Shown: positions 20,027-51,451 of the stretch, piece after piece
Numbering within the stretch: the first letter of the stretch is position 1
Layout of the letters: each line of letters starts with the position of its first letter
Assembly (NCBI GenBank): GCA_035651675.1
Contig: DASRFH010000019.1
Coordinates: 18,288 to 82,287 of the forward strand
Length of the DNA: 64,000 bases
DNA from: Chloroflexota bacterium
Lineage (GTDB): Bacteria; Chloroflexota; UBA6077; FW602-bin22
Direction of reading: 5' to 3'
Made by a program: the position numbers and the translations under genes
The notes under the pieces: generated by a model
The model's input: only the letters and a program-made list of their open reading frames with translations
Databases searched by the model: none
Told to the model about the DNA's origin: nothing

Positions 20027-22000
20027 TCACTCGGCGCCCTCGCTCAGGATCCGCTCCTCGACCGCCCGGCAAATGATGTCGGGCAGCGCGTCGATCTTCG
20101 GCACGAGTGTCCCGCGCGAGCACGAAATCGGGAGGTCGTCGATCACCGGCTCGTAGGACGCTTTGAACTCGACCTCGGCCAGCCCGACGCCGAAGGCGAG
20201 CAGCCGCAGCCGCTCGCGCGGCGGCCGGACCGCGTTGCGCTCCTCGATCCCGACCAGCGCGTCGACCAACGCCGCGCGGTCGCTCGAGATGCCGTCGGTC
20301 ACGATGAGGATCGTCTTGAGCCCCGGCTGGCCGCCGATGTCGGCGACCGCCTGGCTGATCGCGCGCGCTTCCTGCGTCTCGCCATGGTCGAGCGCGTACA
20401 TGTCGCGGATCAAGTAGCTGAAGTCCTTGACCACGTAGTGGCTCGAGGGGTCGATCCGCATCGAGTCGTAGGCAATCTCCGAGAACGAGCGCATCACGCG
20501 CGGCGCGTCGGAGAACGCGATCACTTCGTACGGCAGCTTCAGCCGCTCGTGGATCTCGATGAACAACACCGCCGTCTCGACCACCTGATCGAACTTACGG
20601 CTCGGGTAGCCACGCTGCACGACCGACCCACTCACGTCGAGCAGGATCGCGTTCGCGAAGTCCTTGAGGCTATCCTGGCGCTGCTGCCGGACGCCCTTCA
20701 GGAAGGCGACCGCCGGGTCGATCAGCAGGTTCTCGGGCCGGTCCTCGTCGAGGTCGCCGGTGTCGCCCCGCCGGAAGCGGCGCGGCCGTCGGTACGGATC
20801 GGCAGTGCCGAAGCGGCGCAGCGTGAGAATCTGCGCCAGGCCGGGCGCGCCGCCGCGGCCGTGCACCGTCGCGTCGATCAGCGGCTCGAGTTGCCGCACC
20901 TTGCGCACGTAGTCGAACTGCTCGTAATCCGGCCCGCCGCGAGGCTTGAACCGCCGGATGCGCTGGATGACGCCACCCGCCCAGCGCGGCCCGGCGTCGA
21001 GCCCGCTCGGCCGCGGCAGCGGCTGGGCGGGCTCCCTGCCCTCTGCCTCGTCGGCGCTCCTCGGAGGCTTCGGCGCGCGCTCCTCGGTCTCCTCCGGGGG
21101 CAGGGCGCCGATCGGTGCATCTTCCCGGACGAAGAAGAACACGCCCTGGTCGCCGCCGGGGGGCTCCAGATCCTTCGTCTCGTCGGCCGCCGGCGGCATC
21201 CAGTCCTCGTCCGGCTCCTCGTCCGCCGGCGGTGGCTCGGGCTCGAGCTCGTTCGGTGGCGGCCGACGCTGCTCCTCCGCGAGCTCCTGCCGCGAGCGCT
21301 CGATAAGCTGGCCGTAGAGCGGCAGCAGCGCCGTGAGTCGCCCGGCGCATTCCGCCATGCTGTCCGCGTCGGCGGCGTGGGCCGCGTCGGGCCAGCCGCG
21401 CCGCACGGCGTCGGCCACGCGACCGTCGACGGACCGGTCGACGTCGGGCCATACACCGGCGATCCACCGCGCGATCAGACCGTCGAGGAACAGGTGGTGG
21501 CTTAGCGGACGCTCCGCGCTCCGCCGACCGCGCACGTCGTTCTTCGGGTGCAGCTCGGTGCCCTGCGCGTACAGCGACCGGAGGAAGAGCGACGCGCCGG
21601 GATAGGCACGCAGGTAGCGGTTGTTGACGCGGAAGTCGTTGACGACGTTCAGCAGAAGCACGGCGCTGCCGTGCTCGACCCGGTAGCGCGTCGCGTCGGT
21701 CGCGAATCGGTAGATCGCCTTGCCGGCCTCGGGCCCGGCGTACAGCGCCTCGGCGACTTCGTGGCAAAGCGCACCAACCGCGCGCACGCCCGACCATTCG
21801 TGTAGCAGGTGTGCCGGGTAGACGAGCGTCCCGGAGTCTGGGCCGTACGCCCACCATTCGCCCGCCACGAGACGAACCGGCTGGTCGCGGAGGAGCAGCC
21901 GCGCGATCGCCTCCAGCTCGGATGGCCGGTAATGGAGAGACTCGATCTCGGCGGCCAGCGCCTCGACGGTTGCCGCGACCGGCGGGCTACCCGACGCCAC
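20027..22000 (-). CDS. VWA-domain protein with acidic/Pro-rich central linker (CobT/NorD-like partner of the upstream AAA+ ATPase)
   Basis: 657 aa. The C-terminal VWA domain has MIDAS DVSGS and a later TDG. The central region ELEPEPPPADEEPDEDW...EETEER is strongly acidic. The N-terminal ~250 aa are uncharacterised. Confidence 0.7.
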   Translation of the reverse strand: MASGSPPVAATVEALAAEIESLHYRPSELEAIARLLLRDQPVRLVAGEWWAYGPDSGTLVYPAHLLHEWSGVRAVGALCHEVAEALYAGPEAGKAIYRFATDATRYRVEHGSAVLLLNVVNDFRVNNRYLRAYPGASLFLRSLYAQGTELHPKNDVRGRRSAERPLSHHLFLDGLIARWIAGVWPDVDRSVDGRVADAVRRGWPDAAHAADADSMAECAGRLTALLPLYGQLIERSRQELAEEQRRPPPNELEPEPPPADEEPDEDWMPPAADETKDLEPPGGDQGVFFFVREDAPIGALPPEETEERAPKPPRSADEAEGREPAQPLPRPSGLDAGPRWAGGVIQRIRRFKPRGGPDYEQFDYVRKVRQLEPLIDATVHGRGGAPGLAQILTLRRFGTADPYRRPRRFRRGDTGDLDEDRPENLLIDPAVAFLKGVRQQRQDSLKDFANAILLDVSGSVVQRGYPSRKFDQVVETAVLFIEIHERLKLPYEVIAFSDAPRVMRSFSEIAYDSMRIDPSSHYVVKDFSYLIRDMYALDHGETQEARAISQAVADIGGQPGLKTILIVTDGISSDRAALVDALVGIEERNAVRPPRERLRLLAFGVGLAEVEFKASYEPVIDDLPISCSRGTLVPKIDALPDIICRAVEERILSEGAE

Positions 22001-22035
22001 GTCTTCGCGGCCCGCAAAGATTGCTCACCGGCGGC

Positions 22036-24396
22036 TCACTCCACCCCGTACTGCAGCAGCACCGGCTCCAGGACTCGCCGGGCCGCGTCGCTCGCGCCTT
22101 CGAGCACGCCCGTCCGGAACCGCTGACCGAACTCGGCCGCGTCGCGGCTGGTCCGCGCGATGGCGACGAGCTCGGCGGTCGAGAGCGCCGCGCCGCGCGC
22201 CGCCTGCCGCAGTGCTTCCTGCGAGGCGCGACTGAGCCCCACGATGGAGCCAGGGTCGATCCGCCCGGTCGCGATCTGGCGGCAGTAATCGACCAGGCGC
22301 ACGCAGTTCTCGAGCGCGCGTGAGCCGGCCAGCCCGGGCGCGACGAATTGGAGGATCGCGACCTCCTCCGCGATCGGCGGGTAGTCGACGGCGACGATCG
22401 CGCCGAAGCGGTTCTCGACGGCCTCGTTCAAAGGCTTCACGCCCGGGCCCTCCAGCGAACCGGTCGCGATCACCCACGCGTCAGGGTGAACCCGGAACAG
22501 CGTGCCGTCCGGCAGCGTGACGCTCGCGCCTTTATCGAACAGGCCGTTGATCAGCGAGTGCACGTCGGGGTAGGCGACGTTGTAGTCGTTCACCAGCACG
22601 GCGTCGCCGCGGTCGAGCGCCTCGAGGAATGCCTGGGTGGTCCATCGGGTCACGCCGCCGACCAGCCGACGGCTGGCGGTCAGGTCGCCCTTGGCGGTCT
22701 CGCCGGTCAGCGAGAACTCGACTAGCCGCTTGCGGTTCAGCAGCGCGAGCGTGCGGGCGAGGCTCGACTTGCCCGCGCCGGTCGGTCCGGCGAAGAACAC
22801 GGGCCGGCCCATCAGCAGCGCGGCCTCGGCCAGCCGAAGCGCGCCGATCGAGCTCGCGGTCAGGCACGGCAGCGCCTCGGCGCGGGTCGGCGGCCGCCCA
22901 AGCCGCCACGGCACGTTGACGCCGTAGACGTCGCGCAGCTCCGCCTCGATCTCCTCCATGCGCCAACGGTCGCGGATCTGCCGGTTCTGGGAGTCGTAGG
23001 CGCGGAGCCGCAGCCCAAGGCCGACCCGGCCCCCGCCGTGGGGGTAAAACGGCTCGCCGACCAGCACGCGCGTGCCATCGGCCAGCCGCTTCTGGTAGCG
23101 GACCGCGTGGACCACGACCTCCTCGTGGGCGCGGCCGTTCCGAGGCCGGTGCAGGACGTGCGCGGGCGGCTGCACCTTGTCGATGGCGACCGCTTCGGCG
23201 GAGTGCACGTCCGGCCAGCGCGCGCGCAGGTCCGCCACCCGATCCGCTCCGCCGACCCGCGCGTCGGCCAGCGCCCTCCGGATCACGTCGAGCGCCCGCT
23301 CGCGGGCCTCGCGCGGCAGGGTCGTGAGGAGCGCTCGCTCGGCCACGTCGGCGAGCGGCCCGCCCGTGATCGCACTGAGCCCGGCCCAGTGGATCAATGC
23401 GCGGGTCGACAGTCGGTTGATGAGGACCGTCCCGATCTGCGCGTCCGAGCGCAGCTCCGCGGCGACGTCCGTGAGCCGTCGGGCGAGCGCGCGGTCGAGC
23501 CGCACGCCGCGCCCGCCGAACGGCTCCTGCGCGTCGAACTCCGCGACGATCGCGTCCGCCTCCTCGTCCGGCGGGATGAAGGTCATCTCGATGTAGCCGA
23601 GCCCCCGACCGAAGCGCCGCTCCATCGCGCGCCCGAGATCGAGCGTGCCGACGTAGTTGGGGTTCGCCGTGCCGATGATGCCGAAGTGGCGGTGAACTTC
23701 GACCTCCACGTTGCCCCGCTCGGTCCCGGAGACGATCAGCCGCCCGGTGTCCATCGCCTGCGAGAAGACGACGAGGATGTCGGCTGGCACCATGTTGATC
23801 TCGTTGATGAGCAGCTTTTTCCCGAGCAGCATCGCCTCGACGGCCGGGCCGGGCACGGTCACGGTGCTCTGCCCTCCCTGGCCGCGGATGACCTCGACCG
23901 AGCGGTAGAAGTCGTTCAGCGTCGTGTCGCCGCTGAACGAGAGCTCGGTGAGCGGCTGGCCGGCGAGCCAACAGTACGTCTTTGCGGTCGTGGTCTTGCC
24001 GCAGCCGGTCGGGCCGAAGAGCAGCACGAAACCGCGGTGCTCGCCTGAGCTCGTGTCGGCGGTGGCGATCCGGCGCAGGACCCGACCCATCGCCGGGGAG
24101 ACGTAGCCGAACACCTCGCGCTCGCTTGGGATGGCAGCCGTGAGGTCGGCGGGCTCGACGAGCCGGTCGAGCTGGGACGCCCAGTCCGGCGGCCGTTGGC
24201 GGCGTCTGGCCAGCGGCTCGAGCCCCGGCTCGGCGCGCAGCCGACGCCGCGGGAAGCTGACGCCGTCGACCTCGAAGTGGTCGTCGTAGAGAGCCGCCCC
24301 GGGGCCGAGCGACCGTGCCACGACCTGGGTCACAATAGGCGATCTTAGCATCGGCACACGGAATGCATTCCCCATCTTGGGGCAGCGACGTCCCAA
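22036..24396 (-). CDS. Tandem AAA_5 (MoxR/CbbQ/NorQ-class) AAA+ ATPase
   Basis: 786 aa with two P-loops, LLFGPTGCGKTT and FFAGPTGAGKSS. Each is followed by a Walker-B-like strand with non-canonical residues (LLINEIN and VLVNDYN). The start is uncertain; ATGs at 24396, 24375 and 24351 are all possible. Confidence 0.75.
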   Translation of the reverse strand: MGRRCPKMGNAFRVPMLRSPIVTQVVARSLGPGAALYDDHFEVDGVSFPRRRLRAEPGLEPLARRRQRPPDWASQLDRLVEPADLTAAIPSEREVFGYVSPAMGRVLRRIATADTSSGEHRGFVLLFGPTGCGKTTTAKTYCWLAGQPLTELSFSGDTTLNDFYRSVEVIRGQGGQSTVTVPGPAVEAMLLGKKLLINEINMVPADILVVFSQAMDTGRLIVSGTERGNVEVEVHRHFGIIGTANPNYVGTLDLGRAMERRFGRGLGYIEMTFIPPDEEADAIVAEFDAQEPFGGRGVRLDRALARRLTDVAAELRSDAQIGTVLINRLSTRALIHWAGLSAITGGPLADVAERALLTTLPREARERALDVIRRALADARVGGADRVADLRARWPDVHSAEAVAIDKVQPPAHVLHRPRNGRAHEEVVVHAVRYQKRLADGTRVLVGEPFYPHGGGRVGLGLRLRAYDSQNRQIRDRWRMEEIEAELRDVYGVNVPWRLGRPPTRAEALPCLTASSIGALRLAEAALLMGRPVFFAGPTGAGKSSLARTLALLNRKRLVEFSLTGETAKGDLTASRRLVGGVTRWTTQAFLEALDRGDAVLVNDYNVAYPDVHSLINGLFDKGASVTLPDGTLFRVHPDAWVIATGSLEGPGVKPLNEAVENRFGAIVAVDYPPIAEEVAILQFVAPGLAGSRALENCVRLVDYCRQIATGRIDPGSIVGLSRASQEALRQAARGAALSTAELVAIARTSRDAAEFGQRFRTGVLEGASDAARRVLEPVLLQYGVE

Positions 24397-24407
24397 AGGA
24401 GAATGCA

Positions 24408-24656
24408 GTGGCGGACAAAGAAAAGGTCAAGGGCAAGCTCAACGAGGCGGTCGGCTCGGTCAAGCAGGGCATCGGCTCGGCGACGGGCGACGAGCGCCTG
24501 CAGGCGGAGGGACAGGCCCAGGAAGCGAAGGGCAAAGGCCAGGGCCTCGTCGGCGATGTCAAGGACAAAGCGCGTGAGGCGAAGGAGACCGCCAAGGGCG
24601 CCGTCGGCGCCGTAAAGGACGCCGCGCACGACGAAGAGCGGAGCCGGCGCCCTTAA
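24408..24656 (+). CDS. CsbD family general-stress protein
   Basis: GTG 24408 follows AAGGAG. The product ADKEKVKGKLNEAVGSVKQGIGSATGDERLQAEGQAQEAKGKGQ... is the typical CsbD repeat pattern. Confidence 0.75.
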   Translation: MADKEKVKGKLNEAVGSVKQGIGSATGDERLQAEGQAQEAKGKGQGLVGDVKDKAREAKETAKGAVGAVKDAAHDEERSRRP

Positions 24657-26854
24657 CCCCGCGACCTGAACAGGGTGGCGATCAAGTTGTCCACGGGTGC
24701 GTACTGATCAGTCAGGACGATCTGCGGCCCGTCGGCGACGTAAGCGTCTAGCTGATCCTGGGGAAGCTCGGCGGTGATCCCGCCGAGCTTCTTGACGTCT
24801 ATGCCGTTCTCAGACCCGGCGATCACCCAAACGTTGGCGCCGCCGCTCTGCCAGGCCGGCCCGGCGGCGAGCAGCTGCACCCGTGGGAAGGCCTGGCGCA
24901 TCGTGCGCAGGGCCGAACGGAGGAGCTGGCCGTCGCGGTAGAGGTCGATGACGGTCAGCAGGTACGCGCCGCCGGGCTGCAGCAGCTCGCGCACGCGGTC
25001 GTCGTACTCCTTGGTCATGATGTGGTACGGCACCGAGAGGTCGTTCACGGCGTCCTGCACGACCAGCGTGTAGCCGCCTTTGGGCGCCTGCTCCTGGACG
25101 AACTGGCGGCCATCGAGGTTGTACGTGACCACCGGCGTATCGTCCGGCAGGTCGAGGTACCGGTGCGCCACCTGCGTCACACCCGGATCGATCTCGACCA
25201 CCTCGACCCCGACGCGCGGAAGTTGTGACGCCACCCAGCGCGGGTAGGTGTAGCCGCCGCCCCCGATCACAAGCACGCGCGGGTTCGCCTGGCCGTCGGT
25301 CAGGAAGCGGGTGATGTCGGCCTGGATCTGCTCGTGGACGTACCCGAGGTAGGTCGGGTCGCCTGGTTTGACGTAGGAGTGGACAAGATGGTCGAGCACG
25401 AGTGTCTTGACTGGCCCGGTGCCCGGTTGAACCGCGTCGCCGACCTTGATGCAGTAGTAATTCGTCTCGAGCGTGCAGCGCGACCGCGCCGCGTCGCGCG
25501 CCACCAGGAGCGCGATCGCACCGCCAGCCACCACGATGGCCGTGGCCAGCACGACCCGCCGCGACCAGAACCGTCCCACCACCATGCCGAGCAACAGCAG
25601 GAGGAGCGCCAGCCCGAACACCAACGTGTGCACGCCCACCGCCGACACGAGCCACCATCCGGTCGCGAAGGTGCCGACGATCGCGCCGGCCGTGGACCAC
25701 GCGTACACCTCGCCGGCCACGCGGCCCGAGCGCCGAACGTCGATCACCGCTAGCCGGATCACCTGCGGCGAGATGGTGCCCAGCAGCAGGACCGGGACGA
25801 AAAACACGGCCGCGGTCTCGGCGAGGATCCGCTCGACAAGCCCCATCGACGCCCACAGGGCCCCCTCGTCGAGCAGCTCGGCGAGTCGGAGGATTAGCAG
25901 CCCGCCCAGACCGCTGACGAACAAGCTGGCGCCGAGGACCCTGCGTCCGGGCCACCGGTCGGCGATCCAGCCGCCGAGGTAGTTGCCGAGCGTGATCCCG
26001 AGCAAGACCACGCCGATGATGCCGGTCCAGCTGTAGAGCGACAGGCCGAGGTACGGCGCCAGGAGGCGGCTGGCAGCGAGCTCGACACCCATGCTCGCGA
26101 AGGAGGCGACGAACACGGTGGCCGCCGCGGCGGCGAGGGGGAGCACGACGCCGGACGATCGGGCCAAGTCGGACGGCACGCCGCGCGGACCGACGAGCTC
26201 GCTCGGCCGCCACCACTCGCCTGCCAGGCCGCCGATCGCGATCAGCGCAAGGCCCACGCCGACGACGATCGTGTTGACCGGCAAGTAGGCGGTGAGCACG
26301 AACCCGGTCGCGAAGTTGCCGACGAGCGAGCCGAGCGTGGCGCACGCGTAGACGAGGCCGACCACGCGGCCGGTGCGGCCCACCTCCGGCAGTGCGCACC
26401 TGATCGCGATCGGCGGGACCATACCGAGCACAAGGTTCGGCGGCAGGAAGATGAGGGTGGTGAGCACGAAGATCCGGCCCAGAAGTGGCAGCGCTCGGAC
26501 CGGCGCCGAGCCGCCGAGGACGGCGACCAGCGGGATCGTCGCGAGCGACAGCGCTCCGCCGACCAGGAACAGCGCGCCGAGCCGCCTGGGGCTCGCGCCC
26601 CGATCGGCGTACCTCCCGCCCACGAAGTTGCCGATCGAGACCCCAGCGAGGACCACGCCGATGATCGACGTCCAGGTGTAGAGCGACACGCCGACGTACG
26701 GCGACAACATCCGCCCGGCGACCAGCTCGAGCACTAACGACGCCGCGCTCGCCACGAAGGCGAGAAAGTACGGATGAAGCGCCGATGCCGATCGCCCCTC
26801 CCGTCGGGGGGGAGCGAGCGTGAGGGCTCCTTGCTCCTGCGCGATCGCCGCCAT
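24653..26854 (-). CDS. Fused polytopic membrane (MFS-like) / spermidine synthase-like protein
   Basis: I trimmed the ORF to ATG 26854. About 500 aa of hydrophobic helices are followed by a class-I methyltransferase/spermidine-synthase-like domain (VLVIGGGGYTYPRW, VEVVEIDPGV, VQDAVND). Confidence 0.75.
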   Translation of the reverse strand: MAAIAQEQGALTLAPPRREGRSASALHPYFLAFVASAASLVLELVAGRMLSPYVGVSLYTWTSIIGVVLAGVSIGNFVGGRYADRGASPRRLGALFLVGGALSLATIPLVAVLGGSAPVRALPLLGRIFVLTTLIFLPPNLVLGMVPPIAIRCALPEVGRTGRVVGLVYACATLGSLVGNFATGFVLTAYLPVNTIVVGVGLALIAIGGLAGEWWRPSELVGPRGVPSDLARSSGVVLPLAAAAATVFVASFASMGVELAASRLLAPYLGLSLYSWTGIIGVVLLGITLGNYLGGWIADRWPGRRVLGASLFVSGLGGLLILRLAELLDEGALWASMGLVERILAETAAVFFVPVLLLGTISPQVIRLAVIDVRRSGRVAGEVYAWSTAGAIVGTFATGWWLVSAVGVHTLVFGLALLLLLLGMVVGRFWSRRVVLATAIVVAGGAIALLVARDAARSRCTLETNYYCIKVGDAVQPGTGPVKTLVLDHLVHSYVKPGDPTYLGYVHEQIQADITRFLTDGQANPRVLVIGGGGYTYPRWVASQLPRVGVEVVEIDPGVTQVAHRYLDLPDDTPVVTYNLDGRQFVQEQAPKGGYTLVVQDAVNDLSVPYHIMTKEYDDRVRELLQPGGAYLLTVIDLYRDGQLLRSALRTMRQAFPRVQLLAAGPAWQSGGANVWVIAGSENGIDVKKLGGITAELPQDQLDAYVADGPQIVLTDQYAPVDNLIATLFRSRG

Positions 26855-26889
26855 GGCGGCACAGTATAGGAACGAGGCTGCGTGCCGAC

Positions 26890-26918
26890 TTGTCAGTCGC
26901 CGCGGGCGACCGTACAAT
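26890..26918 (+). promoter_or_regulatory. Sigma-70-like promoter for gltB
   Basis: TTGTCA (26890-26895), a 17-nt spacer, then TACAAT (26913-26918), about 140 nt upstream of the gltB ATG. Confidence 0.45.
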
Positions 26919-26962
26919 ACGGGTAGTCTCGGAGGACGCGGGACACCGTAAGACGACGACGT

Positions 26963-27007
26963 CCACGGCCTGAGCCAGGTGCGGCCAGGCGGTGGGCGTT
27001 TTTGTTT
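26963..27007 (+). terminator. Terminator-like hairpin plus U-tract inside the gltB 5' leader (possible attenuator)
   Basis: Arms CCACGGCCTG (26963-26972) and CAGGCGGTGG (26986-26995) pair over 10 positions with one G-G mismatch. GCGTTTTTGTTT follows. It lies between the predicted promoter and ATG 27057. Confidence 0.4.
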
Positions 27008-27056
27008 CCCCCGGCAGGCTGGACCGCATCTCAAAAGCGGGGAAGAACGTATCCGG

Positions 27057-36699: not shown

Positions 36700-36814
36700 C
36701 CGGACCGGGTTCGATCGGCATCCCTCGCGAGCGCAAGCTCATCGTCCGCATATCCGGTGAACGTCAAGCCGGTGCGTTGGGCACCTGACGAGGTACACGC
36801 CTTGGGGAAGGCCT

Positions 36815-37189
36815 CTGAACGCTCTGGGACGTCATCTCCTCATCGAGCTCTACGACTGTGACGCCGCGGCGCTCGACGACCTCGATCTAGTCCGCGACAC
36901 GCTCGTCGAGGCGGCCGACCGCCTCCGATCGTCCATCCTCCACGTGTGCACGCACAAGTTCGAGCCAGTCGGCGTCACGGCGGTCGTCATGATCGCCGAG
37001 TCGCACCTGTCGGTCCACACGTGGCCCGAGCACGGCTACGCTGCGATCGACATCTTCACGTGCAGCCCGACAATGCAGCCGGCCGACGTCGTCGGTTTCA
37101 TCAGCGCGCGCCTCCGATCCCGCAAGGTGGAAACCGTGGAGGTCAACCGCGGCATCCTGCCGCTGGTGCGCGCGGGGAGGCCGGGGTGA
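36815..37189 (+). CDS. speH: S-adenosylmethionine decarboxylase proenzyme (SpeH/SpeD class 1)
   Basis: My own translation gives LNALGRHLLIELYDCD...HKFEPVGVTAVVMIAESHLSVHTWPEHGYAAIDIFTC, with the ES self-cleavage site. The track starts at GTG 36944, mid-domain. The frame is open from 36761 but has no ATG, GTG or TTG before 36944. CTG 36815 aligns with the usual N-terminal Met, so the start is uncertain. Confidence 0.75.
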   Translation: MNALGRHLLIELYDCDAAALDDLDLVRDTLVEAADRLRSSILHVCTHKFEPVGVTAVVMIAESHLSVHTWPEHGYAAIDIFTCSPTMQPADVVGFISARLRSRKVETVEVNRGILPLVRAGRPG

Positions 37190-38085
37190 CGCCGCTGGCC
37201 ACTGTCGATCTCTGGCCCGGCGCCCAGTACCAGCTAACAGTGCGCCGGGAGATCGTCGCCAAGCAGACACGGTTCCAGTCGCTGGCGATCTGCGACACGG
37301 AGACCTTCGGACGAGCGCTCTTCCTCGATAGGAAGATCCAGTCAGCCGAGGCCGACGAGCACATCTACCACGAGGCGCTCGTTCACCCCGCGCTGATCGC
37401 GCACGGCGACCCGAAGAGCGTCTTCATCGCCGGCGGCGGCGAGGGCGCCACCCTGCGCGAGGTGCTGCGCTTTCCCAGCGTGCGCCGTGCGCTGATGGTG
37501 GACATCGACGAGGAGGCCGTCGCCTTCGCGCGTCAGCACATGGGCGCCTGGCACCAGGGCGCGTTCGACGACCCGCGCACGGAGCTGCGCTTCGACGACG
37601 CGCGCGCGGCCCTCGAGCGCTCGGTCGAGCGGTTCGACGCCATCGTCGTGGACGTCACCGACCCCGTGTCCGGCGGTCCCTCGTACCGCCTCTTCACCGA
37701 AGAGTTCTACCAGCTGGCGGTCGAGCGTCTGAACCCAGGCGGCGTGCTGGCGCTCCAGGCCGAGTCGACGGCGCTGCCGATCGTCGAGGGGCACGCCGCG
37801 GTGGCCAAGACCGTGCGGTCGGTCTTCCCGATCGCGCGCTCCTACGCCGTCTTCGTGCCGTCGTTCGGCGAGCCGTGGGGCTTCGTCGTCGCCAGCCGCG
37901 ACGTCGACCCGGCCGCGCTGCCCGACGACGAGGTCGAGCACCGCCTGCGCGAGCGCGGCCTCGCCAACCGCCACTACGACGGCGAGAGCCACCGCCACAT
38001 GTTCGCGTTGACGCGCGGCGTACGCGAGGCGATCGCCGCCGCGCCGCGCACCATCACGGACGATCGGCCGCTCGTTGTCAGCTGA
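37186..38085 (+). CDS. speE: Spermidine synthase (polyamine aminopropyltransferase)
   Basis: GTG 37186 forms a GTGA overlap with the speH stop. Motifs: LFLDRKIQSAEADEHIYHEALVHP, FIAGGGEGATLREVL, VDIDEEAV and VDVTDP. Confidence 0.85.
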   Translation: MTPLATVDLWPGAQYQLTVRREIVAKQTRFQSLAICDTETFGRALFLDRKIQSAEADEHIYHEALVHPALIAHGDPKSVFIAGGGEGATLREVLRFPSVRRALMVDIDEEAVAFARQHMGAWHQGAFDDPRTELRFDDARAALERSVERFDAIVVDVTDPVSGGPSYRLFTEEFYQLAVERLNPGGVLALQAESTALPIVEGHAAVAKTVRSVFPIARSYAVFVPSFGEPWGFVVASRDVDPAALPDDEVEHRLRERGLANRHYDGESHRHMFALTRGVREAIAAAPRTITDDRPLVVS

Positions 38086-39208
38086 GCTCCGGTTCGGGCC
38101 AGGCCTCGTCGCGGCGGCCCGCGCCCTCGACACCCCCTGCCTCGTGCTCGATCAGGACTTGCTGCTCCGTGCCTACCGCGCGCTCAGGTCGGCGCTGCCC
38201 GGCGCCGAGCTCTTCTACGCTATGAAGGCGAACCCGCACGACGCGGTCGTCGCGCCGCTCGCGGCCGACGGGTGCGGCTTCGAGGTCGCGTCGACCGCGG
38301 AGCTCGAGCTCGCCGCGCGGCACGGCGTGCCGCCGGAGCGGATCATCTCCTCCAACTCTGTCAAGACGATCGACCTGCTGCGGCGGGCGCGCGCACTGGG
38401 CGTCGATCGGTTCGCGTTCGACTCCGAAGACGAGCTTCAGAAGATCGGGCGCTTCGCGCCCGGCGCGCGCGTGTACTGCCGCGTGGTCGTCGACAACAGC
38501 GGCTCCGACTGGCCGTTGTCGCGCAAGTTCGGCGTCCCGGCCGGCGACGCGGTGCCCATGCTGCTCGACGCTGCCGCCCTCGGACTGCGACCGCACGGGC
38601 TGTCCTTCCACGTCGGCTCGCAGTGCCGCGACGTGGCGAGCTGGCGTCGCGCTATCGAGACGTGCGCGGCGATCTGGCAGGACGCCGCGCGGGCGGGCCT
38701 GCGCCTCGAGGCGCTCAACCTCGGCGGCGGCTTCCCGGTCCGGCACCTGAGGGAAACGCCGAGCTGGAACGCGATCGGCACGGAGATCGGCGCGGCGGTG
38801 GCGGAGCTGCTCCCACCCGGGGTACGGCTGGTCGTCGAGCCCGGCCGCGCGATCGTCGGCGGGGCGGCGGTGCTCGTGACGAGCGTGATCGGCAAGGCAC
38901 GGCGCGGCGACGAGCGCTGGATCTACCTCGACGCCGGTGTCTTCAACGGCCTCATGGAGGCGGTCGGCGGCCTCGGCTACGAGCTGCGCACCGAGCGCGA
39001 TGGTCCGACGAGTCGGCAGGTCGTGGCCGGGCCGACCTGCGACTCGATGGACGTGATCGCGACCGAAGTCGAGCTGCCGGAGCTCGAGGTTGGCGACCGC
39101 GTGTACGTCATGAACGCGGGCGCGTACACGCTCAGCTACGCGTCCCGGTTCAACGGGTTCGCGCCGCCGGAGCTCCACCTGCTACCCGGTGTGGCGCTCC
39201 CGCGCTAG
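38075..39208 (+). CDS. Group IV PLP-dependent decarboxylase (ornithine/DAP/arginine decarboxylase family; probably ornithine decarboxylase given the context)
   Basis: FYAMKANP (PLP lysine), GFEVAS, HVGSQ, a GGG loop and the C-terminal CDSMD motif. It overlaps speE by 11 nt. Substrate assignment is an inference from the operon. Confidence 0.8.
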   Translation: MSAELRFGPGLVAAARALDTPCLVLDQDLLLRAYRALRSALPGAELFYAMKANPHDAVVAPLAADGCGFEVASTAELELAARHGVPPERIISSNSVKTIDLLRRARALGVDRFAFDSEDELQKIGRFAPGARVYCRVVVDNSGSDWPLSRKFGVPAGDAVPMLLDAAALGLRPHGLSFHVGSQCRDVASWRRAIETCAAIWQDAARAGLRLEALNLGGGFPVRHLRETPSWNAIGTEIGAAVAELLPPGVRLVVEPGRAIVGGAAVLVTSVIGKARRGDERWIYLDAGVFNGLMEAVGGLGYELRTERDGPTSRQVVAGPTCDSMDVIATEVELPELEVGDRVYVMNAGAYTLSYASRFNGFAPPELHLLPGVALPR

Positions 39209-49232: not shown

Positions 49233-49525
49233 TCAGGCGCCGCTCGGCGCGGGCGCGAGTATAGACACGATCAAATCGCTCCGCAAAAGGGGCGTGCTCC
49301 GGGGCATCGCACCATTCTCGCACGACCGACGCCATCGCGCCGGCGTTCTCTTGTCCTGCTGTCAGGTCACCGATAAACTCTGCGTATCTTCGAACGAGAA
49401 CGCCCCTCCAGAACAGAGATGGGAGCAGGTGCGTTCGCCGCGGTGCGCGCCGGTCGGATCGGGCCCAGCCCACGACGTCGAGGCTCGCTAGGCACCGCCG
49501 TGCCACGTAGAAAGGAACCGGCACC

Positions 49526-51451
49526 ATGCCCGAGCAAGAGGGCGGTTACGTCGCCCTATTCATCGACTGGGACAACTTAGCGATCTCGACCGCCGCCGAC
49601 CACGGCGGCGCGCCGCCCGACCTCCGCCGCATCGTCCAGGTCGCGCAGAGCTACGGCACCTTGCTGATCGCGCGCGCCTACGCCGAATGGGGCGTTACGA
49701 GCGAGCGGCTGAACGTCTACCGCGCCGGCGTGGAGCCGGTCTACGCACCGACCTTCCGCTTCTCCGAAGACGGCCCCGGGCGGCCGGCTGGCGGCAAGAG
49801 CCTTGCCGACCCCTGCCTCGTCTCCGACTGCATCGACATGCTGCACCTCCATCCGCAGCTCACCACGCTCGTGCTGGTGTCGGGCGACAAAGACCTGATC
49901 CCTATCGTTCGTCTGGCGCAGATGCGCGGCAAGAAGGTCGTGGTGATCGGTCCCGACCTCGTCGCGGCGGTCCTGAAGGACATGGCCGACGAGTACATCG
50001 CCTACCGCTCGCTGCTCGGCGGCGACGCGGCGCGCAGCGCCATCGTGCGCGCCGAGGCGGCCGAGCTCGGCCGGCGGCGGCGCCGCCGTGGCGGCCGCGG
50101 CCGGGGCGGCGCCGCCGCCGAGGGCGACGCGGAGACGCCGGAGCAACGAGCGGAGCCGAAGGCGCCGGGCCTGCCGCCGGCGCCGGGCCTGCCGCGTCCC
50201 CTGCACCGGGAGCGGCGGCCGTTCGCCGACCGTGCCGCCTTGCCGCGCCCTGAGCCGCCTGCCGAGCCGGTTGAGGAGGTACCGACACCACCGGCGCTCG
50301 GGGAGCCGACGCGGGTCGAGCCGCGCGTCGAGCCAATGCCGGAGCGGGCCGAGGTGCCGCCACCACCGGACCGGCCGGCGCCGGCCGAGGGCCCGGGGAG
50401 CCAGGCGTCGCCCGAGGAGCTGAGCGAGCTGTACGCCACCATCCAGACGATCCTGCGTGAGCGCACCAACGCGGGGCGGCCGCGGCTACGCGCCACGAAC
50501 CTGAAGGACCACCTCATCGCGCGCAAGCCCGGCTTCAACGAGCGAAAGTACGGCTTCAGCAGCTTCCGGGACCTGCTGGCCGCGGCGCGTGCGGCCAGCG
50601 TCCTGCAGATCACCGACGTCGGTCAGGTGCAGTGGATCTCGCTGCCGGACGTCCAGCCCGAGTCGGGCGGAACGCAGCCGGCGCCGCCTGCCCAAGCGCC
50701 AGCGCCGCCGGCCACGGAGCGGGCGCCGGCCATCGAGCTGGCCGAGGCGCTCCAGGCGATCGTCGAGATGCAGCACCACACGAAGCTGCTGACTCCGACG
50801 TACGTGACGAGCACGCTGAGCAACCTCATCAACGCCCGCAGCCCCGGCTATGGATCCGAGGACGCCCAGCGGCTCGTCGAGGCGCTGACCCGCTCGGGCG
50901 CCATCCGTGTCGACACCGAGCCCCAGGAGGTCGAGGTCGACGGCGCCAAGCACCGCGTCCGGCTGGTCCATCTGGTCGAGGAGAACCCAGAAGTGCAGCG
51001 GGCCGAGCAGGCCCGGCAGCAGCGCAACGGCGCGTCCGCGACCCGCGAAGGCTCCGCCGAGGTGACCGAGGCCGCGCCCGAGCCCGCCGCGAATGGACGG
51101 AACTCAAGCCGGCGCTCGCGGCGCGGTCGCGGCGGATCCAAGAAGGGTGCGGGGGACGAGGCCGGCGAGGCGGTCGCGGCCGAGCCGCCCGCCGCTGAGC
51201 CGACGGCGGAGAGCCCGCTCGACCAGGTCTTCGCCACGCTGGTCGATGCGGTCCGCGCAAGCATCCCGCCCGGCCGCGACACCGCCGGCGCTGCCGGCGT
51301 CAAGTCGCGCCTGTCCGCCGCGCTGCCGTCGTTCGACGAAAAGCAGCTGGGCTTTTCGAAGTTCAAGGACTTCCTGCTCGCCGCCGAGAAAGCCGGCAAG
51401 GTCCGCGTCGAGACGAGCGGCGCCGCGACGCGGGTCGGGCTACCCGGCTAA
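49526..51451 (+). CDS. NYN (LabA-like PIN-fold nuclease) domain protein with multiple OST-HTH/LOTUS domains and RGG/Pro-rich linkers
   Basis: The N-terminal ALFIDWDNL...ARAYAEW...[28 protein letters not shown] is a NYN/LabA pattern. OST-HTH-like modules occur near aa 293-365 ([26 protein letters not shown]) and aa 560-635 ([26 protein letters not shown]). The RGG tracts are [13 protein letters not shown] and [13 protein letters not shown]. Confidence 0.7.

What the first reader, a model, noticed from the sequence alone, without database searches (positions are those of the whole stretch)
20027..24396. Tandem-AAA_5 ATPase with non-canonical Walker B motifs paired with a CobT/NorD-like VWA protein, no client gene in sight
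Two co-directional genes, 35 nt apart, form an AAA+/VWA pair of the CobS-CobT, NorQ-NorD, CbbQ-CbbO and MoxR-VWA type. They differ from those systems in several ways.

- The ATPase is 786 aa and contains two complete AAA_5 modules (P-loops GPTGCGKT and GPTGAGKS). They are separated by an insert of about 110 aa and preceded by an N-terminal domain of about 110 aa.
- Both Walker B strands deviate from hhhhDE. The first is LLINEIN (Asp to Asn). The second is VLVNDYN (Asp to Asn, Glu to Asp).
- The partner has an uncharacterised ~250-aa N-terminal domain containing CHEVAE. A strongly acidic Pro-rich linker follows (EPEPPPADEEPDEDW...EETEER). The C-terminal VWA domain has an intact DVSGS MIDAS motif.

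No cobalamin, nitric-oxide reductase, RuBisCO or gas-vesicle genes are nearby. The pair is wedged between mutL and csbD. It may be a distinct remodelling or metal-insertion machine with an unknown substrate.
Basis: partly seen in the sequence, partly recalled or inferred. Interest (0 to 1): 0.6.

Follow-up and report, generated by a model that had tools for sequence, protein, structure and literature searches.

The report
Chloroflexota double-AAA ATPase with CobT-like partner
Two adjacent genes encode an uncharacterised protein-remodelling machine found only in Chloroflexota, in which an ATPase with two motor modules and an unusual, strictly conserved catalytic motif works with a metal-dependent adaptor protein on an unknown target.

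Summary
On the minus strand, 22036..24375/24396 encodes a 779-786 aa protein with two AAA_5 modules, and 35 nt downstream 20027..22000 encodes a 657 aa protein built as N-domain, acidic Pro-rich linker and MIDAS-intact VWA domain.

- **Walker B.** The Asp-to-Asn change is not sporadic. It is present in both modules in essentially all 73 species-level orthologues (hhhNE; ND in module 2 is a local variant).
- **Linkage.** The pair is adjacent in 74 of 78 Chloroflexota loci and co-evolves (r = 0.98). No third gene is conserved beside it, and the window is otherwise core housekeeping.
- **Relatives.** The closest solved relatives are midasin (sequence, ATPase) and Rea1-MIDAS/NorD (fold, VWA). The partner matches phage CobT-like proteins over its full length.
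- **N-domain.** It is a zincin-like domain. Distant relatives keep HExxH...E, whereas this family has HExxE...N.
- **Fusions.** Distant relatives include fusions of AAA_5 modules with this N-domain-VWA unit, one with six modules in one chain.

Best reading: a MoxR-class remodelling chaperone, probably a trimer forming a six-module ring, with a NorD/CobT-like adaptor and an unknown client. It is a new variant of a known kind, and its function is untested.

The parts
22036..24396 (-). Tandem-AAA_5 ATPase gene. The mechanical ORF is 786 aa from TTG 24396. The likely start is ATG 24375, giving 779 aa, identical to database protein P0001.
24076..24375 (-). N-terminal region of the ATPase (~100 aa): a small three-stranded beta unit with the conserved motif LGPxV..F.V.G..FPRR, then the helix leading into module 1. 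Function unknown.
   Evidence: alignment A1; AF2 model
23992..24015 (-). Walker A of module 1, GPTGCGKT (73/73 orthologues).
23794..23814 (-). Walker B of module 1, LLINEIN: Asn replaces the canonical Asp and the catalytic Glu is kept (invariant N, E, N).
23659..23685 (-). Sensor-1 strand of module 1, FGIIGTANP (TANP in 73/73).
23602..23622 (-). ERRFGRG, candidate arginine-finger segment of module 1 (RRFG invariant).
   Evidence: assignment by analogy with AAA_5 proteins (inference)
23401..23415 (-). RLSTR, sensor-2 arginine of the module 1 lid (71/73). The lid gives a weak CbbQ_C match.
22858..23223 (-). Inter-module insert (~120 aa), predicted as a beta-sheet plus helix. Conserved motifs are LADGxRVL and LRDExGLNVP. 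Function unknown.
22765..22788 (-). Walker A of module 2, GPTGAGKS (GPxGxGKS in 73/73).
22579..22599 (-). Walker B of module 2, VLVNDYN. The Asn is invariant and the next residue is Glu in most orthologues, Asp here.
22441..22470 (-). Sensor-1 position of module 2, IATGSLEGPG. No Asn is present, so a canonical sensor 1 is missing.
22168..22185 (-). LSTAEL in the module 2 lid. The sensor-2 Arg of module 1 (STR) is replaced by Ala-Glu here.
20027..22000 (-). Partner gene, 657 aa: zincin-like N-domain, acidic linker, VWA/MIDAS domain. It is CobT/NorD-like in layout.
21251..22000 (-). N-domain (~250 aa, pLDDT about 90): three short strands followed by the motif helix, then a helical bundle.
21749..21763 (-). 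HEVAE, at the position of HExxH in distant relatives (70 of 79). The second His is replaced by Glu.
21623..21658 (-). LLLNVVNDFRVN. Relatives have NxxEDxRVN, so the Glu that would be the third metal ligand of a gluzincin is Asn here.
20936..21250 (-). Disordered acidic Pro-rich linker (pLDDT below 40). Its length across the family is 93-130 aa, with median net charge -7 (-11 here).
20666..20824 (-). Highly conserved basic segment [16 protein letters not shown](D/E).D ... AFLKG, lying just before the first VWA strand. Most of it (residues 402-445) is predicted disordered in isolation. It is the candidate 'finger' that enters the ATPase pore and contains an RGD-like motif.
   Evidence: the role is inferred from NorQD (PMC13036017)
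20030..20665 (-). VWA domain. MIDAS residues D455, S457, S459 (20624-20638), T542 (HGETQ 20372-20386) and D569 (VTDGISSD 20279-20302) are all invariant.

Best explanation
The two genes encode a self-contained MoxR-class AAA+/VWA remodelling chaperone that is vertically inherited in a set of Chloroflexota lineages.

**Proposed mechanism (inferred unless marked as shown).**
- Three copies of the two-module ATPase assemble into a ring of six AAA_5 modules that alternate module 1 and module 2, as the six modules of midasin or dynein do within one chain.
- Module 1 keeps every catalytic element except that the Walker B Asp is Asn. It has Walker A, Glu, sensor-1 Asn, Arg finger and sensor-2 Arg, and is the likely hydrolytic site.
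- Module 2 has a P-loop and N-E/D but lacks sensor 1 and sensor 2. It is probably a nucleotide-binding regulatory or structural site.
- One partner protein docks its VWA domain on the ring. The conserved basic segment before the VWA domain inserts into the pore, as the NorD finger does.
- The intact MIDAS site grips an acidic residue of a client protein. The zincin-derived N-domain provides a second anchor, on the ring or on the client.
- ATP-driven movement of the ring stretches the acidic linker and remodels the client, for assembly, disassembly or cofactor loading.

**Shown here.** The domain composition, the conserved motifs, the strict gene linkage and co-evolution, the fused relatives, and the structural similarity to midasin, NorD and CobT-like proteins.

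**Not shown.** The client is not encoded next to the pair and remains unknown. The stoichiometry, the finger, ATPase activity and the client are not established.
For: **Classification.**
- Two AAA_5 modules.
- The best PDB sequence relatives are midasin at 1.7e-31, then CbbQ, NorQ and CobS.
- The whole tandem AF2 model (pTM 0.77) aligns over more than 750 columns to neighbouring AAA modules of dynein rings.
- Helix-2-insert and pre-sensor-1 hairpins are predicted in module 1.

**Partner.**
- The VWA fold is closest to Rea1/MDN1 MIDAS and NorD.
- Full-length fold matches to phage CobT-like proteins reach E 4e-13.
- All five MIDAS residues are invariant.

**Functional coupling.**
- The partner lies directly downstream in 74 of 78 loci.
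- Identities of the two proteins correlate at r = 0.98.
- Distant relatives fuse AAA_5 modules with the same N-domain-VWA unit in one chain: P0204, P0205, P0252, and P0229 with 3 x 2 modules.

**Selection.** Motif conservation across 42-100% identity.

**Housekeeping character.**
- One copy per genome.
- Flanks are core genes and GC is unremarkable.
- No specific PADLOC hit.

**Mechanistic template.** NorQD cryo-EM shows an NTD-linker-VWA adaptor with a finger in the pore and a stretched linker (PMC13036017).
Against: - No experiment or multimer model was available, so the trimer-of-dimers ring, the finger assignment and the division of labour between modules are inferences.
- A Walker B Asn could greatly slow or abolish Mg-ATP hydrolysis, so the machine could be a nucleotide-gated holder rather than a motor.
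- Foldseek superpositions on dynein have high rmsd (9-18 A) and TMq of only about 0.45.
- One lineage (L017/P0065) has the ATPase but no partner within 8 kb.
- No client, and hence no biological role, could be identified.
Confidence: 0.6

Rival explanations
1. A dedicated metal-cofactor insertase in the manner of CobNST, NorQD or CoxDE. The pair would load a specific metal or cofactor into one metalloenzyme encoded elsewhere in the genome. The remodelled His/Glu/Asn-Asp site of the N-domain would handle a harder metal than zinc. This is a special case of the best explanation rather than an alternative to it.
For: - The partner's overall fold matches CobT-like proteins, and weak CobT/CobT_C Pfam hits occur in some relatives.
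- NorD and CbbO share the NTD-linker-VWA layout.
- There is a coupled change of two putative metal ligands, H to E and E to N.
Against: - No CobN, Nor, Cox, RuBisCO or other candidate metalloenzyme was found in the window or recurrently in 78 loci.
- There are no CobS/CobT/NorQ equivalog hits.
- A subclade has QQxxE and lacks the paired His residues, so a conserved metal site in the N-domain is not universal.
Confidence: 0.25
2. An ATP-dependent proteolytic system. The AAA ring would unfold substrates recruited by the VWA domain, and the zincin-like N-domain would cleave them.
For: - The N-domain is homologous to domains with canonical HExxH plus Glu in 70 of 79 distant relatives.
- There is a weak profile match to the minigluzincin MJ1213 and to Ste24.
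- One relative carries an extra M48 peptidase domain.
Against: - In this family two of the three zinc ligands are replaced (HExxE and N for E).
- One subclade has QQxxE, so peptidase activity cannot be the conserved function.
Confidence: 0.05
3. An anti-phage or conflict system, or a domesticated phage module, related to vWA-MoxR ternary systems or to phage CobS/CobT-like pairs.
For: - Distant partner relatives sit on phage-like contigs next to a single AAA_5 gene (L080).
- BFVD top hits are phage proteins.
- Weak PADLOC mad3/mad8 hits cover the P-loop region only.
Against: - There is a single copy in a core housekeeping context, with lineage-wise conserved synteny and normal GC.
- There is no third VMAP-like or effector gene.
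- The partner has no PADLOC hit.
Confidence: 0.07
4. A degenerating or catalytically dead ATPase pair kept by chance, with the Walker B changes marking loss of function.
For: The Walker B Asp is absent from both modules, and module 2 also lacks sensor 1 and sensor 2.
Against: - The same Asn is invariant across about 73 species at 42-100% identity. P-loops, Glu184, the sensor-1 Asn of module 1 and the Arg residues are also invariant.
- The ORFs are intact with the codon bias of real genes, GC3 0.91.
- The partner co-evolves with the ATPase, r = 0.98.
Confidence: 0.03

Closest known systems
NorQ/NorD (and the related CbbQ/CbbO) MoxR-VWA chaperones
   Same: - An AAA_5 ATPase works with an adaptor built as N-terminal domain, long flexible linker and VWA domain with a MIDAS site.
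- The VWA fold is among the best PDB matches (9qhd_G, E 8.8e-6).
- The genes are adjacent and co-directional.
   Different: - Here there are two AAA modules per chain instead of one.
- Walker B is NE instead of DE.
- The N-domain is zincin-derived and shows no sequence match to the NorD or CbbO N-domains.
- No nor or cbb genes are nearby.
- CbbQ_C is only weak and below cut-off.
Midasin (Rea1/MDN1), eukaryotic ribosome-assembly AAA protein
   Same: - It is the best solved sequence relative of both ATPase modules (E 1.7e-31).
- The VWA domain is closest in fold to the Rea1 MIDAS domain (6qt8).
- The order of parts is the same: AAA_5 modules, then an acidic low-complexity stretch, then the MIDAS domain.
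   Different: - Midasin has six modules, a large linker, a D/E-rich region and MIDAS in one chain of about 5000 aa.
- Here there are two modules on one protein and MIDAS on another.
- There is no midasin linker domain.
- This system is bacterial, and Walker B is NE rather than DE.
Aerobic cobaltochelatase CobS/CobT and phage CobS/CobT-like pairs
   Same: - The partner matches phage 'CobT-like VWA' proteins over its full length by fold (E 4e-13, 717 columns).
- The layout of zincin-like N-domain, acidic linker and VWA is shared.
- The partner is paired with an AAA_5 ATPase (L080).
   Different: - CobS is a single module with a DE Walker B. The PDB CobS match is only E 2e-4.
- There are no NCBIfam CobS/CobT hits, and Pfam CobT (PF06213) is not detected in this family.
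- No CobN was seen in the window.
Unnamed prokaryotic multi-AAA_5/VWA fusions (e.g. P0229, P0204, P0308) found here
   Same: - They carry the same N-domain-VWA unit (profile E 1e-27 to 1e-11), preceded by tandem AAA_5 modules and the midasin-type lid AAA_lid_7.
- The first modules of P0308-type proteins also carry an NE Walker B and group next to this family, with weak support of 40%.
   Different: - They are fused in one chain.
- They carry extra HEAT or TPR repeats or an M48 peptidase domain.
- Their N-domain keeps canonical HExxH.
- In most lineages the Walker B pattern is EE followed by DE.
- They come from other, unidentified taxa.

Membership tests
MoxR-class / helix-2-insert clade AAA+ (Pfam AAA_5) | Significant match to AAA_5, with Walker A GxxGxGK[ST] | tested here: met
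   AAA_5 E 1.3e-31 with two stretches. Both P-loops are present in 73/73 orthologues.
MoxR-class / helix-2-insert clade AAA+ (Pfam AAA_5) | Canonical Walker B hhhhDE | tested here: not met
   Both modules have Asn at the Asp position (NE, or NE/ND), aligned against the DE of midasin.
MoxR-class / helix-2-insert clade AAA+ (Pfam AAA_5) | Beta-hairpin inserts in helix 2 and before sensor 1 | tested here: inconclusive
   The AF2 model shows paired strands at 149-167 and 204-218 in module 1. The corresponding region of module 2 is low-confidence. This rests on a prediction only.
MoxR-class / helix-2-insert clade AAA+ (Pfam AAA_5) | Adjacent VWA/MIDAS partner gene | tested here: met
   The partner is 35 nt downstream and in the same position in 74 of 78 loci.
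MoxR-class / helix-2-insert clade AAA+ (Pfam AAA_5) | Ring (hexamer-equivalent) assembly and ATPase activity | not testable with these tools
   No multimer prediction or biochemistry was available.
CobS/CobT aerobic cobaltochelatase | Equivalog-level match to the CobS and CobT models | tested here: not met
   NCBIfam gives no CobS or CobT hit among the matches for the ATPase and zero families for the partner. Pfam CobT PF06213 is absent in 25 family members.
CobS/CobT aerobic cobaltochelatase | CobN subunit and an aerobic cobalamin pathway in the genome | not testable with these tools
   None was found in the 64-kb window. The rest of the genome is not available.
NorQ/NorD and CbbQ/CbbO | Single-module ATPase with a CbbQ_C lid, located in a nor or cbb gene cluster | tested here: not met
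   The ATPase has two modules. CbbQ_C scores 19.4 bits, below the cut-off of 20.6. No nor or RuBisCO genes occur in the window or in related loci.
Midasin (MDN1/Rea1) | Six AAA modules, linker, D/E-rich region and MIDAS domain in one polypeptide | tested here: not met
   There are two modules, and the MIDAS domain is on a separate protein. Only the order of parts and the sequence and fold similarity are shared.
Gluzincin metallopeptidases (for the partner's N-domain) | HExxH plus a downstream Glu as zinc ligands | tested here: not met
   This family has HExxE and N(D), and one subclade has QQxxE. Homologous domains elsewhere have HExxH in 70 of 79 cases, followed by ED.
Gluzincin metallopeptidases (for the partner's N-domain) | Zincin fold (mixed sheet followed by the active-site helix) | tested here: inconclusive
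   - The AF2 model shows three strands and then the motif helix, with pLDDT about 90.
- A profile gives only weak hits to minigluzincin 4qhi (E 0.07) and Ste24 (E 0.99).
- A domain-only fold search was not possible.
vWA-MoxR-VMAP ternary conflict systems | A conserved third (VMAP) gene and effector genes next to the pair | tested here: not met
   No third family occurs in more than 19 of 78 loci, and those that recur are housekeeping genes. PADLOC gives no specific hit.

The most novel reading that the evidence does not exclude
The family is an extant two-module stage on the route from single-module MoxR hexamers to single-chain six-module rings such as midasin and dynein.
- A trimer of tandem pairs would form the ring.
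- The MIDAS adaptor is still a separate gene.
- In other bacteria the same unit has been triplicated and fused (P0229: 3 x 2 modules + N-domain + VWA).

In addition, the invariant Asn-type Walker B, inherited by both modules from before their duplication, would define a distinct way of running the AAA+ cycle. Candidates are a slow or Mg-independent hydrolysis step, or a nucleotide-gated clamp.
Probability: 0.2. Interest if true: 0.75.

Novelty: new variant of a known kind. Interest (0 to 1): 0.55.

Why it matters
**A natural Walker B variant.** MoxR-VWA chaperones mature important enzymes such as RuBisCO, NO reductase and cobaltochelatase, but most members have no known client. This family adds a natural experiment: an AAA+ ring built from two-module chains in which the Walker B aspartate is replaced by asparagine in both modules, under clear purifying selection. 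That aspartate is normally considered indispensable. If module 1 still hydrolyses ATP, the result bears on what the Walker B Asp is needed for. If it does not, the family is a model for nucleotide-gated, non-motor AAA+ rings.

**Origin of midasin and dynein rings.** The relatives found here range from one module through two to 3 x 2 modules fused to the same zincin-VWA tail. They make the long-discussed origin of the six-module midasin/dynein ring from MoxR-like ancestors testable with bacterial proteins.

**Biology of the host.** The pair is a conserved, unexplained component of widespread uncultured Chloroflexota from groundwater, soil, lakes and sponge symbionts.

Tried and rejected
- **Orthology to known systems.** CobS/CobT, NorQ/NorD, CbbQ/CbbO and GvpN were rejected. 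Only sub-threshold or P-loop-only hits were found: GvpN 54.6 bits against a cut-off of 266.8, and CbbQ_C below cut-off.
- **Defence system.** PADLOC gave only P-loop-level hits for the ATPase and none for the partner.
- **Third gene.** tblastn of all window neighbours against 78 loci and de novo clustering of about 1060 flanking ORFs found nothing conserved beyond lineage-level synteny. The recurring flanking genes are 2-hydroxyacid dehydrogenase, lexA, RNR, S1, ClpC and nfo.
- **The upstream 793-aa gene as client.** It is separated from the pair by the opposite-strand csbD-like ORF and conserved only in the three closest loci.
- **Sequence search of the partner against PDB.** There were no hits as a single sequence, only integrin I-domain fragments as a profile, and only weak zincin hits for the N-domain profile.
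- **Pfam on N-domain relatives.** No family was found.
- **Promoter and terminator scan.** Nothing was found, which is uninformative at 70% GC.
- **Literature.** No description of this family or of 'bacterial midasin-like' proteins appears in the searchable library. Garbarino & Gibbons 2002 and Iyer et al. 2004 are not held, so earlier mention of multi-module bacterial AAA_5 proteins cannot be excluded.
- **Module tree.** Support for sisterhood of modules 1 and 2 is only 62%, and for the NE clade 40%, so the duplication history is tentative.

Full report
**What is there.** The window is about 70% G+C. On the minus strand there are two long ORFs with the codon bias of real genes, GC3 0.91.
- The upstream ORF (22036..24396 from a TTG; more likely ATG 24375, giving the 779 aa of the identical database protein P0001) encodes an ATPase with two AAA_5 matches (Pfam E 1.3e-31).
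- The downstream ORF starts 35 nt later, at GTG 22000. It encodes 657 aa with only a weak VWA_2 match.
- A small csbD-like ORF on the other strand (about 24408-24656) abuts the ATPase start, and mutL converges on the partner's end. The pair is therefore a two-gene unit.

**The ATPase.**
- phmmer against all PDB sequences puts midasin (Rea1/MDN1) first (E 1.7e-31), well ahead of CbbQ (3e-10), NorQ (3e-7) and CobS (2e-4). Both modules align to several midasin modules.
- In those alignments LLINEINM and VLVNDYNVA lie on midasin's LLLDEVNLA, IVLDELNLA and VLLDEMNLA. The Walker B assignment and the Asp-to-Asn change are therefore real.
- In an alignment of 24 orthologues (42-87% identity) the Asn is invariant in both modules.
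- A motif survey of 73 species-level genes gave these counts:

| Module | Motif | Count |
|---|---|---|
| 1 | GPTGCGKT | 73/73 |
| 1 | hNEhN | 73/73 |
| 1 | TANP (sensor 1) | 73/73 |
| 1 | R-h-STR (sensor 2) | 71/73 |
| 2 | GPxGxGKS | 73/73 |
| 2 | N(E/D)YN | 71/73 |

- Most orthologues have NE in module 2, so ND is a variant found in this organism and some relatives.
- Module 2 has no Asn at the sensor-1 position, and STAE where module 1 has STR.
- The two modules are 28% identical to each other (E 1e-12).
- The AF2 model (pLDDT 76, pTM 0.77) shows, in order: a small N-terminal beta unit; module 1 with hairpins at the helix-2 and pre-sensor-1 positions; a lid; a beta-rich insert of about 120 residues; then module 2 and its lid.
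- As a whole the model superposes over more than 750 columns on neighbouring AAA modules of dynein motor rings (TMq 0.44-0.47, E about 1e-13). This is what is expected if the two modules pack like adjacent ring protomers. The rmsd values are high, so this is suggestive only.

**The partner.**
- The AF2 model gives a confident N-domain (residues 8-245, pLDDT about 90), a disordered stretch (251-355, pLDDT 27-37), two helices, a second low-confidence stretch (402-445) and a VWA domain.
- In the family alignment the five MIDAS residues are invariant: D455, S457, S459, T542 and D569. Variants of the flanking residues do not touch them.
- The linker is 93-130 residues across 68 proteins, with median net charge -7 (-11 here, with 22% Pro).
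- The segment just before the VWA domain, [16 protein letters not shown](D/E).D...AFLKG, is among the most conserved parts of the protein and is basic.
- Foldseek against the PDB ranks the Rea1 MIDAS domain (6qt8) and NorD (9qhd_G) first, ahead of integrin I-domains, with about 310 aligned columns.
- Against predicted viral structures the whole protein, both domains included, matches phage 'CobT-like VWA' proteins (E 4e-13, 717 columns).

**The N-domain is zincin-derived.**
- A profile of the partner family searched against 1.84 billion representative proteins found 491 relatives.
- A profile of the N-domain alone recovers it in about 90 of the listed distant proteins (E 1e-24 to 1e-8).
- At the position of this family's HEVAE, 70 of 79 distant relatives have HExxH. 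Where this family has NVVND, they have NxxED. This is the pattern of a gluzincin: two His on the helix and a downstream Glu.
- The predicted topology of three strands followed by the motif helix agrees with this. So does a weak profile match to the minigluzincin MJ1213 (4qhi, E 0.07) and to Ste24.
- In the Chloroflexota family two of the three putative ligands are replaced (H to E, E to N). In one subclade the motif is QQxxE and the conserved His pair further on is lost.
- Peptidase activity is therefore unlikely to be the conserved function. [quoted passage not shown]
- Pfam has no model for it.

**Distribution and linkage.**
- A scan of one genome per species (GTDB r232) found 78 loci, all in Chloroflexota MAGs from groundwater, soil, lakes, sponges and the ocean. 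The scan used family-specific peptide patterns, so it only speaks for close relatives. All named hits of the protein searches are also Chloroflexota.
- The partner lies directly downstream in 74 loci. Three of the other four are cut by contig ends. One, L017, really lacks it within 8 kb.
- Identities of the ATPase and the partner to the window proteins correlate at r = 0.98.
- The other window neighbours are conserved only in the three closest loci.
- Clustering of all flanking ORFs finds no further family in more than 19 of 78 loci. Those that recur are housekeeping genes.
- The window itself is core chromosome: mutS, mutL, gltB, valS, mreB, the atp operon, and pur and his genes.
- There is thus no client in cis and no sign of a mobile island or defence locus.

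**Wider family.**
- Among the distant relatives of the partner are proteins of 1200-5200 aa in which the same N-domain-VWA unit follows AAA_5 modules and the 'midasin AAA lid' domain: P0204, P0205, P0214 and P0252.
- P0229, from a bacterial genome, has six AAA_5 modules arranged as three repeats (67-85% identical) of a two-module unit, followed by the N-domain and VWA.
- Unfused relatives sit next to a single AAA_5 gene on a phage-like contig (L080), a 1724-aa multi-module ATPase (L081), or a HEAT-AAA_5-AAA_lid_7-AAA_5 protein (L083).
- These fusions are Rosetta-stone evidence that the ATPase and partner act as one machine. The 3 x 2 protein supports the idea that three two-module chains make one ring.
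- In a neighbour-joining tree of 41 modules, module 1 and module 2 of this family each form a 100% clade and are sisters in 62% of bootstraps. The next group, at 40%, is the first module of the P0308-type fusions, which also has NE.
- This suggests, tentatively, that the Asn predates the internal duplication, which would explain why both modules share it.
- Other tandem lineages show EE in the first module and DE in the second. Variation at this position is therefore a recurrent trait of the multi-module forms.

**How it most likely works.**
- The best template is NorQD (PMC13036017). In that system:
  - the VWA domain of NorD sits on the NorQ ring with a finger in the pore;
  - the N-terminal domain binds a lid of the ring;
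  - ATP-driven rotation stretches the long linker between them, which is essential for iron insertion into NO reductase.
- The authors propose that this mode is general for AAA+/VWA pairs, including midasin.
- By analogy, and as inference, I propose the following:
  - a ring of three tandem chains, with module 1 as the hydrolytic site and module 2 as a nucleotide-binding regulatory site;
  - the conserved basic segment 393-445 as the pore-inserting finger;
  - the MIDAS site as the grip on an acidic residue of the client;
  - the acidic linker as the element that is stretched.
- The RGD-like motif in the basic segment could alternatively be an internal pseudo-ligand of the MIDAS site. This is speculation.
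- What the Asn does to the ATPase cycle cannot be told from sequence. Asn can still accept the hydrogen bond from the P-loop Ser/Thr and contact a Mg-bound water, so slow hydrolysis is plausible, but a non-hydrolysing clamp is not excluded.

**Comparison and novelty.**
- The pair works like NorQ/NorD, CbbQ/CbbO and CobS/CobT and resembles midasin in sequence. It fails the membership tests for each of them: module number, Walker B, lid and N-domain families, equivalog models and gene context (see the membership table).
- No paper in the searchable library describes it. Two key older papers could not be read.
- I rate it a new variant of a known kind, of moderate interest (0.55).
  - The class is familiar and the function is unknown.
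  - Against that, the conserved Asn-type Walker B in both modules, the remodelled zincin domain, and the link to one-, two- and six-module relatives are unusual and testable.

Noticed in passing
window 24653-27034 (-), with 36761-37189 (+) and 38012-39208 (+): A 793-aa protein has no Pfam hit at 1e-5. Its sequence reads as two blocks of transmembrane helices followed by a spermidine-synthase-like C-terminal domain. speD (AdoMet decarboxylase) and an Orn/DAP/Arg decarboxylase lie 10-12 kb away, so the window carries a scattered set of polyamine genes.
   Followed up: no
window ~24408-24656 (+): A csbD-like small ORF lies divergent from the ATPase gene, with only about 30-55 nt between the two starts. 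The mechanical TTG start of the ATPase overlaps it.
   Followed up: partly
L084 5001-18416 (protein P0229; bacterial assembly GCA_040960375.1): A 4471-aa single-chain bacterial protein carries six AAA_5 modules, arranged as three 67-85% identical repeats of a two-module unit (Walker B LEE then DE). TPR repeats are also present, and the same zincin-like N-domain and VWA follow at the C-terminal end. In layout it is a bacterial 'midasin-like' protein.
   Followed up: partly
L017 7845-10292 (P0065 lineage): An 815-aa orthologue of the tandem ATPase (50% identity, NE/ND motifs intact) has no VWA partner within 8 kb. An aldehyde dehydrogenase and an M3 oligoendopeptidase follow instead.
   Followed up: partly
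L080 5025-8023: A phage-like contig (many small unannotated ORFs, YopX, HNH) carries a single-module AAA_5 gene (376 aa, Walker B DE) directly upstream of a 618-aa relative of the partner that has canonical HExxH.
   Followed up: no
partner subclade in L026, L035, L048, L050, L053, L056, L064, L065, L070, L071, L073-L075 and others: About 14-16 partner orthologues have QQxxE instead of HExxE, ARxVNELRVN instead of LLLNxVNDxRVN, and lack the conserved His-His pair, while MIDAS stays intact. Their ATPases carry GKKLLLNEVNI.
   Followed up: partly
window 49511-51451 (+): A 646-aa protein has an N-terminal NYN nuclease domain and an OST-HTH/LOTUS domain, next to guaA.
   Followed up: no
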